59,525 bases of DNA from a virus (lineage: Duplodnaviria; Caudoviricetes), in IMG/VR virus record IMGVR_UViG_3300049854_000016, positions 1 through 59,525 of that record; one strand, written 5' to 3'. Numbering within the stretch: the stretch's first letter is position 1; each line of letters opens with the position of its first letter. Both the position numbers and the translations under genes were made by a program. This document shows, piece by piece, positions 56,525 to 56,650 of this stretch. Below the pieces are notes generated by a model. It worked only from the letters and a program-made list of their open reading frames with translations, searched no databases and was not told the origin of the DNA.

Positions 56525-56650
56525 GGTGGGGGAAGGAATCGAACCTACCAATCATTATCCGCTGCTTGGAGGCACTGGCCCCTCAGACAGTTTCCTGGCT
56601 CTTCAGGCAGTGGTCCATTGCGGAGTGCTTTAGCCACTAAGCTACCCACC
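56525..56650 (-). ncRNA. tRNA-like RNA with a long hairpin in place of the anticodon loop
   Basis: GGTGGG/CCCACC acceptor, TA, GCTT-AGTGGCTA-AAGC D arm, GGTAGG-TTCGATT-CCTTCC T arm; no assignable anticodon. Confidence 0.7.

What the first reader, a model, noticed from the sequence alone, without database searches (positions are those of the whole stretch)
56525..56650. tRNA mimic: intact D and T arms, anticodon loop replaced by a long irregular hairpin
Seen: a 6-bp acceptor, U8-A9, a D loop with GG, and a TTCGATT T loop. The anticodon stem TCCGC/GCGGA continues through TGGA/TCCA, CACTG/CAGTG and tandem GA pairs to CAG-GAAA-CTG. There is no U33, no clear anticodon and no encoded CCA. Inference: not a decoding tRNA. 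It may be a decoy for host anticodon nucleases or tRNA-sensing defences, a Y-RNA-like mimic, an RNase P/Z processing signal releasing the adjacent RNA, or an intron-containing tRNA.
Basis: partly seen in the sequence, partly recalled or inferred. Interest (0 to 1): 0.7.

Follow-up and report, generated by a model that had tools for sequence, protein, structure and literature searches.

The report
Phage tRNA remnant that cannot decode
A sediment phage carries a transcribed, tRNA-shaped sequence whose anticodon loop is replaced by a long hairpin, so it cannot read codons and is most likely a disabled tRNA gene, though related phages hint such elements may be kept for another use.

Summary
On the minus strand at 56650-56524 lies a 127-nt tRNA-derived sequence. 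It has an intact D arm, a consensus T loop and a 6-7-bp acceptor. A 57-nt irregular hairpin sits where the anticodon loop should be.

ARAGORN calls it only in intron mode. Rfam's tRNA model scores 23.5 bits against a cut-off of 29. None of 40 shuffled genomes gives such a call.

It is not an intron-containing tRNA:
- No excision gives a canonical anticodon arm.
- There is no bulge-helix-bulge motif.
- The host looks bacterial.
- An RNA-library contig from another study crosses the insert without a joint.

It also matches no tmRNA, Y RNA or ribozyme family.

No full homologue exists in about 1.2 Mb of related sequence. The nearest relative keeps only a decayed T-loop remnant at the same offset.

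Best reading (0.5): a disabled tRNA gene carried in the leader of the downstream SLOG gene. Rival (0.33): a selected top-half tRNA mimic. The virus's clade holds four non-canonical tRNA-like elements and no canonical tRNA.

The parts
56524..56650 (-). Whole tRNA-like element, 127 nt (5' end at 56650, discriminator-position T at 56524)
   Evidence: ARAGORN -i call c[56524,56650]; Rfam RF00005 at 56524-56650, 23.5 bits
56644..56650 (-). Acceptor 5' strand GGTGGG(T); 6 Watson-Crick pairs plus a U-C mismatch or bulge
   Evidence: Sequence; ARAGORN drawing; Rfam alignment with a 1-nt deletion
56627..56642 (-). D arm: stem GCTT/AAGC (4 of 4 pairs), 8-nt loop AGTGGCTA with GG
56558..56624 (-). 67-nt arm at the anticodon position: TCCGC/GCGGA closing stem around the insert
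   Evidence: MFE fold; stability not above shuffles (z=-1.66)
56563..56619 (-). 57-nt irregular hairpin replacing the anticodon loop (TGGA/TCCA, CACTG/CAGTG, GA-rich internal loop, CAG-GAAA-CTG tip). ARAGORN's 50-nt 'intron' is 56570-56619
   Evidence: no U33 in 8 of 8 registers; 0 canonical products from any excision
56549..56557 (-). 9-nt variable region with no stem
   Evidence: Sequence indexing; 5-nt insertion relative to the Rfam model
56532..56548 (-). T arm: stem GTAGG/CCTTC (4 of 5 pairs, U-U mismatch), consensus loop TTCGATT
56525..56531 (-). Acceptor 3' strand (C)CCCACC; followed by T and no CCA
56512..56521 (+). Copy of the genome-wide motif CTGCAGGGGC, 3 nt after the element's 3' end. 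It pairs in RNA with the inverted copy at 56353-56362
56335..56523 (-). 189-nt structured leader between the element and the SLOG start codon, clamped by the two inverted motif copies
   Evidence: Fold z=-2.25, 3 of 200 shuffles; the inverted motif pair is also present in L034
55993..56334 (-). Downstream gene: YspA/SLOG-family protein (PF10686). True start is ATG 56334, not the GTG at 56418
   Evidence: Pfam; relatives align only from residue ~29; DNA conservation begins at the ATG
56294..56642 (.). Stretch covered by one colinear contig of a metatranscriptome run from another study (word depth 27.3, 0 differences, no joint)
   Evidence: tables 5 and 8; contigs give no strand

Best explanation
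The element is a tRNA gene that has lost its decoding function. Its anticodon loop has been replaced by a ~57-nt hairpin-forming insertion. It has also picked up smaller defects: one nucleotide missing at the acceptor/D junction, a U-U mismatch in the T stem, and an enlarged variable region.

It sits in the 352-nt leader of a SLOG/YspA gene in the small-ORF region at one end of a 59.5-kb tailed phage from sediment. It is present in RNA as an unspliced stretch continuous with the start of that gene.

It cannot read a codon and is not spliced. Its acceptor stem, T arm and D/T-loop elbow are still largely intact. Those are the parts that RNase P, 3' tRNases and the CCA-adding enzyme read. Any residual activity is therefore most likely passive cleavage at its ends, which would trim the leader of the downstream mRNA.

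Shown: tRNA ancestry, absence of a decodable anticodon arm, absence of a splice motif or spliced form, presence in an RNA library.

Inferred: that it is decaying and not selected; that RNase P or RNase Z still cut it.
For: tRNA ancestry:
- RF00005 scores 23.5 bits, with D arm, T arm and acceptor aligned at high posterior.
- ARAGORN -i gives a call, with 0 calls in 40 shuffled genomes.

Non-decoding:
- 0 of 8 registers give U33.
- 0 canonical anticodon arms come from all excisions between the D and T arms.
- Only 73 of 4945 deletion products get any ARAGORN call, and those have 6-10-nt or U33-less loops or poorly paired stems.

Signs of decay in every arm: acceptor deletion or mismatch, T stem 4 of 5 pairs, 9-nt variable region.

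The hairpin is not more stable than shuffles.

No full homologue was found in:
- 17 viral plus 32 metagenome SLOG loci;
- 12 whole related records, 556 kb;
- IMG/VR pattern scans;
- GTDB genomes.

The one recognisable homologue is in L034, which shares the clade motif and the inverted motif pair. It is a 9-of-11 T-box match at the identical 13-nt offset. Its T stem pairs at only 2 of 5 positions and U55 is C.

The virus encodes no RNA ligase, splicing endonuclease, CCA enzyme or Ro60 among the 59 ORFs scanned.
Against: - In the virus's own clade (7 records marked by a hyper-abundant CCYCYGCAG motif) there are four tRNA-model hits at three non-syntenic loci. All are non-canonical, and there is no canonical tRNA. 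Simple gene decay would predict a mixture.
- Two of these elements (G002, G004) differ by two compensatory double changes in the T stem, so at least that pair is structurally constrained.
- The window's T loop is a perfect consensus and the D arm is fully paired.
- In the RNA library, the contig over the element has word depth 27.3 against 6.9 for the only other contig in the 2.2 kb laid. Contig depth is a poor measure of expression.
- The L034 homology rests on 11 nt. Infernal does not call it, and the contig ends 37 nt upstream of the motif, so its 5' half is unseen.
Confidence: 0.5

Rival explanations
1. It is a selected, non-decoding tRNA mimic. The phage keeps the acceptor/T-arm/elbow 'top half' because host enzymes or sensors read it. 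It could be an RNase P / RNase Z punctuation site that releases or stabilises the structured SLOG leader and mRNA. It could instead be a decoy or sponge for tRNA-binding defence nucleases or tRNA-processing enzymes. On this reading the long hairpin is a replacement arm that prevents decoding and anticodon cleavage.
For: - Clade pattern: of 7 motif-clade records, 4 carry tRNA-model hits (window 23.5 bits, G002 50.7, G004 23.7, G006 47.1). ARAGORN rejects all of them, they lie at 3 non-syntenic loci, and there are 0 canonical tRNAs. More distant relatives carry 9 ordinary tRNAs.
- The G002 and G004 elements share acceptor and flanks but have wholly different middles, with two compensatory T-stem changes.
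- The window's elbow nucleotides (GG in the D loop, TTCGATT) are intact.
- The element lies among small ORFs at the genome end, where anti-defence genes are often found (inference).
- An RNA-library contig covers the element plus the whole structured leader.
- YrlA shows that RNase P and the CCA enzyme can act on non-decoding tRNA-like domains, and that a 7-bp acceptor matters for RNase P (PMC4201824, passages read).
Against: - No homologue of the window's own element shows covariation, and the only homologous trace (L034) has lost its T stem.
- The acceptor is 6 bp or mismatched, which is weaker for RNase P.
- The hairpin stability is unremarkable.
- The G002-type element is absent from the syntenic site in G003 and G006, so these elements are sporadic.
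- The RNA contig runs through the predicted 3' cleavage site without a break.
- No decoy of this kind appeared in two literature searches.
Confidence: 0.33
2. It is an intron-containing tRNA gene. An archaeal-type splicing endonuclease and ligase, or an unknown bacterial route, would remove the hairpin to give a working tRNA.
For: - ARAGORN intron mode returns tRNA-Leu(AAG) with a 50-nt intron at 31/32.
- A 4-bp helix (TGGA/TCCA) sits between two internal loops, faintly like a relaxed BHB.
- Archaeal introns range from 11 to 129 nt, and relaxed hBH/HBh' sites exist (PMC4090602, passages).
- By eye the insert has box C-like and box D-like words. This reading is my own and is not confirmed by Rfam.
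Against: - ARAGORN's product has loop CCAAGCA, with no U33 and a pyrimidine at position 37.
- 0 of 8 registers and 0 of all D-to-T excisions give a canonical arm.
- The loops flanking the 4-bp helix are 2x4 and 1x2, not two 3-nt bulges. The 15 strict 3-4-3 matches are weak and overlap the D or T arms.
- The host is probably bacterial. The 3D cell-wall domain has bacterial peptidoglycan-binding structural neighbours. The virus has family A polymerase and Shine-Dalgarno sites. All phage matches are to bacterial phages.
- Bacterial tRNA introns are group I, and no group I or other ribozyme hit appears at E<=10.
- The RNA-library contig is colinear across the insert.
- The virus has no endonuclease or ligase gene.
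Confidence: 0.05
3. It is a member of a known tRNA-like ncRNA class: a tmRNA tRNA-like domain, or a bacterial Y RNA (YrlA).
For: - It has tRNA-like D and T arms without an anticodon, as in YrlA.
- YrlA RNAs occur in phages (PMC4201824).
Against: - There are no Rfam hits to tmRNA, YrlA or any other family, at gathering score or at E<=10 in the locus.
- ARAGORN tmRNA mode finds nothing.
- There is no G3:U70 pair.
- No TROVE/Ro60 gene is present among the 59 ORFs scanned.
- In YrlA the acceptor is a closed stem-loop between the D and T arms, and the RNA ends lie at the other helix. Here the ends lie at the acceptor.
Confidence: 0.02
4. It is a phage attachment site (attP) that copies a host tRNA gene for integration.
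For: Temperate phages often integrate into tRNA genes and carry a matching segment (general knowledge, recalled).
Against: - No integrase or recombinase family appears among the Pfam or PHROG hits.
- The genome has direct terminal repeats and its own polymerase.
- An attP copies only the 3' part of a tRNA, whereas both acceptor strands are present here.
- The exact 25-nt 3' half has 0 matches in 185,579 species genomes.
Confidence: 0.03

Closest known systems
Phage-encoded tRNA genes and their pseudogenes
   Same: - It has cloverleaf ancestry and lies intergenic and co-oriented with its neighbours in a tailed-phage genome.
- No CCA is encoded.
- Distant relatives carry ordinary tRNAs, one of them 20 nt after its SLOG gene (L058).
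   Different: - The anticodon loop is replaced by a 57-nt hairpin, not merely mutated.
- It scores below the Rfam cut-off (23.5 against 29 bits), and default tRNA finders miss it.
Archaeal intron-containing pre-tRNA (BHB-spliced)
   Same: - A long insertion sits at the anticodon loop and extends the anticodon stem into a hairpin.
- The size falls within the archaeal intron range of 11-129 nt (PMC4090602).
   Different: - There is no 3-nt/4-bp/3-nt bulge-helix-bulge motif.
- No excision gives a canonical tRNA.
- The host is probably bacterial.
- An unspliced form is present in an RNA library.
Bacterial and phage Y RNA YrlA (tRNA-like domain)
   Same: - It is a non-decoding RNA that keeps D arm, T arm and acceptor-like helix.
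- Some YrlA RNAs are substrates for RNase P and CCA addition (PMC4201824).
   Different: - YrlA is circularly permuted relative to tRNA: the acceptor is closed by a loop and the ends lie at the Ro-binding stem. It is also encoded next to Ro60.
- Here the ends lie at the acceptor, there is no Ro60 gene and Rfam gives no hit.
Phage tRNAs that counter tRNA-cleaving defences (e.g. T5 tRNA-Lys against PARIS; OLD, PrrC and RloC as the nucleases)
   Same: It is a phage-borne tRNA-shaped RNA that an anticodon nuclease could not cut at a normal anticodon loop.
   Different: - The known cases are functional, decoding tRNAs that replace the cleaved host tRNA (PMC11464382 and PMC12445682, seen only as search listings and abstract starts).
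- This element cannot decode, so it could act only as a decoy, which those listings do not describe.
tRNA-like processing signals (mitochondrial tRNA punctuation, MALAT1 mascRNA, gammaherpesvirus 68 tRNA-like/miRNA transcripts). Recalled, not read here
   Same: A non-decoding tRNA-shaped module sits at the head of a longer transcript, where RNase P or RNase Z cleavage could define the ends of the RNA.
   Different: - All of these are eukaryotic or organellar.
- No cleavage has been shown here, and the RNA contig runs through the predicted 3' site.

Membership tests
Canonical tRNA (Rfam RF00005) | Score at or above the gathering cut-off (29 bits) | tested here: not met
   23.5 bits; no hit at gathering score; no hit by the whole-genome route
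Canonical tRNA (Rfam RF00005) | 7-bp acceptor stem with two nucleotides (8, 9) before the D stem | tested here: not met
   6 pairs plus a U-C mismatch or bulged C; 1-nt deletion in the model alignment
Canonical tRNA (Rfam RF00005) | D arm with GG, and T arm with a TTCRANY loop (elbow) | tested here: met
   D stem 4 of 4 pairs, loop AGTGGCTA; T loop TTCGATT, T stem 4 of 5 pairs
Canonical tRNA (Rfam RF00005) | 5-bp anticodon stem, 7-nt loop with U33 and purine 37 | tested here: not met
   57 nt lie between the stem strands; 0 of 8 registers give U33
Archaeal/eukaryal intron-containing tRNA | Bulge-helix-bulge (4-bp helix flanked by two 3-nt bulges) or relaxed hBH/HBh' at the exon-intron junctions (PMC4090602) | tested here: not met
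   The TGGA/TCCA helix is flanked by 2x4 and 1x2 internal loops; the 15 strict matches elsewhere are weak and overlap the D or T arms
Archaeal/eukaryal intron-containing tRNA | Excision yields a canonical tRNA | tested here: not met
   0 products have a stem with >=4 of 5 pairs, a 7-nt loop, U33, R37 and standard spacing; loose ARAGORN calls on 73 of 4945 products
Archaeal/eukaryal intron-containing tRNA | Spliced form exists in RNA | tested here: inconclusive
   The only RNA-library contig is colinear, with no joint. Contigs drop rare variants and raw reads were not available
Archaeal/eukaryal intron-containing tRNA | Host has a tRNA splicing endonuclease (archaeon or eukaryote) | tested here: inconclusive
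   Host unknown. Indirect signs point to a bacterium. No relatives were found in genome contigs
Bacterial group I intron in tRNA | Self-splicing group I core (hundreds of nt) in the anticodon loop | tested here: not met
   The insert is 57 nt; no Rfam intron or ribozyme hit at E<=10 in 56300-56900
tmRNA | tRNA-Ala-like acceptor with G3:U70, plus a tag reading frame and pseudoknots | tested here: not met
   ARAGORN -m finds none; Rfam finds none; pair 3:70 is U-A
YrlA / bacterial Y RNA | Covariance-model match; encoded beside Ro60 (Rsr); acceptor closed by a loop, with the RNA ends in the Ro-binding stem (PMC4201824) | tested here: not met
   No Rfam hit; no TROVE family among the 59 ORFs scanned; the ends lie at the acceptor
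Box C/D sRNA / k-turn inside a tRNA intron | Box C (RUGAUGA) and box D (CUGA) forming a k-turn with a 3-nt bulge, plus guide sequence and C'/D' boxes | tested here: not met
   By eye there are CUGAAGA and CUGA words with tandem G-A. But the bulge is 1 nt or a 3x3 loop, only 13 nt lie between the boxes, and there are no C'/D' boxes. No Rfam C/D hit overlaps the element
Hammerhead or other small self-cleaving ribozyme | CUGANGA, stem II, GAAA core with three helices | tested here: not met
   Both words are present, but only 5 nt lie between them, so no stem II can form. No Rfam ribozyme hit at E<=10
RNase P / RNase Z substrate (works-like test, not a family) | Coaxial acceptor and T-arm helix with an intact T-loop/D-loop elbow; a 7-bp acceptor favours RNase P (PMC4201824) | not testable with these tools
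   The elbow is intact and the acceptor is 6-7 positions. Cleavage needs an enzyme assay or end-mapped RNA

The most novel reading that the evidence does not exclude
A clade of sediment phages carries only anticodon-less tRNA 'top-half' mimics and no decoding tRNAs. The clade is recognisable by a hyper-abundant, strand-symmetric CCYCYGCAG genome motif. It has four such elements at three unrelated genome positions, and one pair shows compensatory T-stem changes.

The window's element, with its long replacement hairpin, would be the most elaborate member. It would head a ~350-nt structured RNA that is abundant in a sediment metatranscriptome.

On this reading, phages keep acceptor/T-arm/elbow modules as RNase P/Z punctuation, or as decoys for tRNA-sensing or tRNA-cleaving host defences.
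Probability: 0.3. Interest if true: 0.65.

Novelty: new variant of a known kind. Interest (0 to 1): 0.35.

Why it matters
If it is a relic, it matters mainly for annotation. Standard tRNA finders miss it, and intron mode mislabels it as tRNA-Leu(AAG) with an intron.

If the rival reading holds, phages would be using non-decoding tRNA shapes as processing signals or as decoys. That bears on the current question of how phages cope with the many defence systems that cut or sense tRNAs. So far only decoding replacement tRNAs appeared in the two literature searches run here.

The clade-wide pattern makes this testable with a handful of constructs: four non-canonical elements and no canonical tRNA.

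Tried and rejected
**Searches for a homologue of the element**
- Default ARAGORN and Rfam at gathering score found nothing in the window.
- The whole-genome RF00005 route misses the element itself. The RF00005 surveys of relatives therefore could not have seen long-insert elements. I repaired this by fetching 12 records whole and running ARAGORN -i and a relaxed scan, which gave 0 extra calls.
- A D-arm/long-gap/T-arm pattern in IMG/VR gave 13 hits. All are adjacent tRNAs or chance.
- A hairpin-word pattern gave 18 hits, all unrelated coding sequence.
- A 5'-half pattern gave 0 hits.
- The exact 3' half gave 0 hits in GTDB genomes.
- The terminase has no relatives in genome contigs. It has only 2 truncated contigs in IMG/VR that stop short of the element.
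- Neighbour genes 54480-55142 and 59085-59489 gave no close relatives.
- blastn against cultured phages gave no match.
- The G002-type element is absent at the syntenic site in G003 and G006.
- Infernal does not call the L034 contig end as a truncated tRNA.

**RNA library**
- In run X2, no contig covers 55648-56293 or 56684-57700. I treat this as uninformative.
- The adapter-joined end at 56294 and the contig end at 56642, 8 nt inside the element, are not interpretable as RNA ends.

**Other alternatives**
- Box C/D, k-turn and hammerhead resemblances seen by eye are not borne out (see the membership tests).
- The overlapping ORFs 56456-56713(+), 56419-56640(+) and 56379-56555(-) have no Pfam or PHROG family.
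- The sigma-70 scan found no promoter upstream of the element on the minus strand.
- The protein atlas gave only viral taxa for the terminase.

**Tool and source limits**
- One search failed for machine reasons and was repeated.
- Supplementary files of papers were not consulted. The supplementary YrlA lists of PMC4201824 could hold phage examples that I did not see.

Full report
**What the window is.** The window is a complete 59,525-bp virus record with 127-bp direct terminal repeats. It is a tailed phage. It has a large terminase, a tail-sheath and baseplate-like proteins, a family A DNA polymerase fused to a UDG domain, a Sak4-like annealing protein, and HNH and endonuclease VII nucleases. 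Nearly all genes lie on the minus strand. It is very distant from cultured phages: the terminase is at most about 26% identical, and every match is to a bacterial phage. The DNA occurs in a freshwater-sediment run that is probably its source, and part of it occurs in a sediment metatranscriptome from another study.

**The observation.**
- acceptor GGTGGG/CCCACC;
- T then A before the D stem;
- D stem GCTT/AAGC with a GG-containing loop;
- T loop TTCGATT;
- a TCCGC/GCGGA stem at the anticodon position enclosing 57 nt, which fold on through TGGA/TCCA and CACTG/CAGTG and a GA-rich internal loop to a CAG-GAAA-CTG tip;
- no CCA.

Default ARAGORN and Rfam at gathering score report nothing in the whole window. 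A permissive Rfam scan of the locus gives tRNA at 23.5 bits (cut-off 29, E=0.018). The D arm, T arm and acceptor align well, with a 65-nt insertion at the anticodon arm and a 1-nt deletion in the 5' acceptor. ARAGORN in intron mode calls it. It makes no call in 40 dinucleotide-shuffled copies of the genome.

The tRNA ancestry is therefore real. The stability of the hairpin is not exceptional: z=-1.66 for the 67-nt arm, with 33 of 500 shuffles folding as well, and z=-1.55 for the whole element.

- the acceptor has 6 pairs plus a U-C mismatch or bulge;
- the T stem has a U-U mismatch;
- the variable region is 9 nt.

**Context.** The element is intergenic and co-oriented with its neighbours. The downstream gene encodes a YspA/SLOG-family protein (PF10686). 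Its true start is the ATG at 56334, because relatives align only from about residue 29 and DNA conservation begins at that ATG. The gap is therefore 352 nt (56335-56686). The 189 nt between the element and that ATG fold into a closed domain (z=-2.25, 3 of 200 shuffles). The domain is clamped by two inverted copies of a genome-wide motif, and one copy starts 3 nt after the element. ORFs overlapping the element have no Pfam or PHROG family.

**Is it an intron-containing tRNA?** ARAGORN's answer is tRNA-Leu(AAG) with a 50-nt intron at 31/32. That leaves the loop CCAAGCA, with no U33 and a pyrimidine at position 37.
- I enumerated all 8 registers that keep the TCCGC/GCGGA stem. None gives U33.
- I deleted every possible single intron (4945 products). 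ARAGORN called 73 of them, with odd loops or poorly paired stems.
- A strict test required a stem with at least 4 of 5 pairs, a 7-nt loop, U33, R37 and standard spacing. It passed 0 products.
- The archaeal splice signal is a 4-bp helix flanked by two 3-nt bulges, with relaxed hBH/HBh' forms (PMC4090602, passages read). Here the 4-bp TGGA/TCCA helix is flanked by 2x4 and 1x2 internal loops. The 15 strict 3-4-3 matches are weak and overlap the D or T arms.
- Bacterial tRNA introns are group I. The insert is 57 nt, and no intron or ribozyme family scores at E<=10.
- The virus encodes no splicing endonuclease or RNA ligase among the 59 ORFs scanned.

The host is not identified, since no relatives were found in genome contigs. 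It looks bacterial on several counts. The 3D cell-wall domain protein has bacterial peptidoglycan-binding proteins as its structural neighbours. The virus has family A polymerase, and AGGAG ribosome-binding sites precede most genes.

In metatranscriptome run X2, one contig of 372 nt (word depth 27.3) lies on 56294-56642 with no difference, gap or joint. The unspliced form is therefore what that library holds. Caveats apply: contigs hide rare forms and give no strand, and an RNA library can contain DNA.

**Other known classes.** There is no tmRNA (ARAGORN -m; Rfam), and pair 3:70 is U-A. There is no YrlA hit and no Ro60 gene. In YrlA the acceptor is a closed stem-loop between the D and T arms and the RNA is encoded next to Ro60 (PMC4201824, passages), whereas here the ends lie at the acceptor. 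The box C/D-like and hammerhead-like words that I saw by eye do not satisfy those motifs, and Rfam does not support them. An attachment site is unlikely: there is no integrase, both acceptor strands are present, and the 3' half has no match in 185,579 species genomes.

**Comparative evidence.** No full homologue was found in any of the following:
- 17 viral and 32 metagenome loci carrying SLOG relatives, searched with blastn, nhmmer and ARAGORN with and without intron mode;
- 12 related records fetched whole (556,405 bases), searched with ARAGORN -i and a relaxed acceptor/D/T scan;
- IMG/VR pattern scans.

Fetching records whole was necessary because the quick whole-genome RF00005 route fails to find the window's own element.

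The virus's true clade is marked by the motif CTGCAGGGGC, which has 27 exact copies in the window. Among the 98 other loci held at that point, the motif occurs only in L002, L003 and L034, and all three are short fragments. L034 shares the inverted motif pair upstream of its SLOG gene. Exactly 13 nt before the first motif copy it has an 11-mer matching the window's T box at 9 of 11 positions. Such a match has a frequency of 2.3e-4 per position in the held sequence. Its T stem pairs at only 2 of 5 positions and U55 is C. Infernal does not call it, and the contig ends there. This is the only homologous trace, and it looks decayed.

**A pattern that cuts the other way.** Relatives G002-G006 and G014 have an analogous hyper-abundant 9-mer, CCTCCGCAG, with 13-57 copies. 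It is the top 9-mer in each of them. The window has CCCCTGCAG with 29 copies. The motif is absent from G001 and G007-G011.

In these 7 motif-clade records ARAGORN finds no tRNA at all. Yet four records have tRNA-model hits (window 23.5 bits, G002 50.7, G004 23.7, G006 47.1), and all are non-canonical:
- G002 has a 4-bp stem and 6-nt loop at the anticodon position.
- G004 lacks a D arm.
- G006 has a truncated anticodon arm.

They sit at three non-syntenic places. The G002 and G004 elements share flanks and acceptor, but differ by two compensatory double changes in the T stem. The more distant, motif-less relatives carry 9 ordinary tRNAs. Pure decay would predict a mixture of good and bad tRNAs in the clade. 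The numbers are small, with only three independent loci.

**Verdict.** The element is tRNA-derived, non-decoding and not spliced.

I put 0.5 on a disabled tRNA gene riding in the SLOG leader. It has defects in every arm and an unremarkable hairpin. Its only homologue is decayed, and such elements are sporadic.

I put 0.33 on a selected top-half mimic, either an RNase P/Z punctuation site or a decoy. The evidence is the clade pattern, the compensatory changes in the G002/G004 pair, the intact elbow and the presence in an RNA library.

I put 0.05 on splicing, and small remainders on a known ncRNA class, attP and other readings. Two literature searches returned no phage tRNA-like RNA with the anticodon loop replaced by a long hairpin. 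That shows only that these term sets found none.

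Noticed in passing
Whole window, e.g. 56512-56521(+), 56353-56362(-), 55705-55714(-), 49688-49697(+): The hyper-abundant motif (C/T)TCTGCAGGGGC has 43 copies at <=1 mismatch, against a mean of 2.85 in shuffles. 27 copies are exact. It occurs on both strands and in all reading frames, with 34 of the 43 copies inside ORFs. This is a DNA-level signal: a possible nicking, modification, recombination or protein-binding site. Inverted pairs can clamp RNA domains.
   Followed up: partly
Related records G002-G006 and G014 (loci L103-L116, L132-L133): These relatives carry an analogous top-ranked 9-mer, CCTCCGCAG, with 13-57 copies per record on both strands. 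The window and L002, L003 and L034 use CCCCTGCAG instead. The motif differs at two positions between sub-clades, as if a recognition specificity had co-evolved. It is absent from G001 and G007-G011.
   Followed up: partly
L067 (G002 22259-22326, minus strand), also G020; L068 (G004 10440-10497, minus strand); L073 (G006 13485-13553, minus strand): Three further non-canonical tRNA-like elements that ARAGORN rejects. Each has a good acceptor and T arm. The anticodon arm is 4 bp with a 6-nt loop in G002 and is truncated in G006, and the D arm is missing in G004. G004's 58-nt form keeps a 5-bp stem and a 7-nt loop with U33, like a D-armless tRNA. G002 and G004 differ by two compensatory T-stem changes.
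   Followed up: partly
56335-56523 (minus strand): The 189-nt leader of the SLOG gene folds into a closed multi-hairpin domain (z=-2.25). It lies wholly within the RNA-library contig. L034 has a shorter counterpart between the same inverted motif copies.
   Followed up: partly
55993-56418 (minus strand): The first-ATG/GTG ORF call starts the SLOG gene at GTG 56418. Conservation shows that the real start is ATG 56334, so the protein has 113 residues, not 141.
   Followed up: yes
32250-34133 (minus-strand ORF 31344-35168): The 1274-aa protein has LVIVD repeats (PF08309). It contains many diverged direct DNA repeats with a 12-nt-multiple periodicity, including a perfect 56-nt duplicate 1.5 kb apart.
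   Followed up: no
15653-18262 (minus strand): A family A DNA polymerase carries an N-terminal uracil-DNA-glycosylase-superfamily domain in a single 869-aa ORF.
   Followed up: no
L058 1332-1405: A metagenome relative has an ordinary tRNA-Glu(CTC) 20 nt after its SLOG gene. tRNA genes do therefore settle next to this gene in related viruses.
   Followed up: no
L010/L011 around 6018-6081 and L009/L013 (IMG/VR contigs hit by pattern, unrelated to this virus): T-arm-plus-acceptor-like 3' halves occur without a recognisable 5' tRNA half. They may be tRNA fragments or att-like sites.
   Followed up: no
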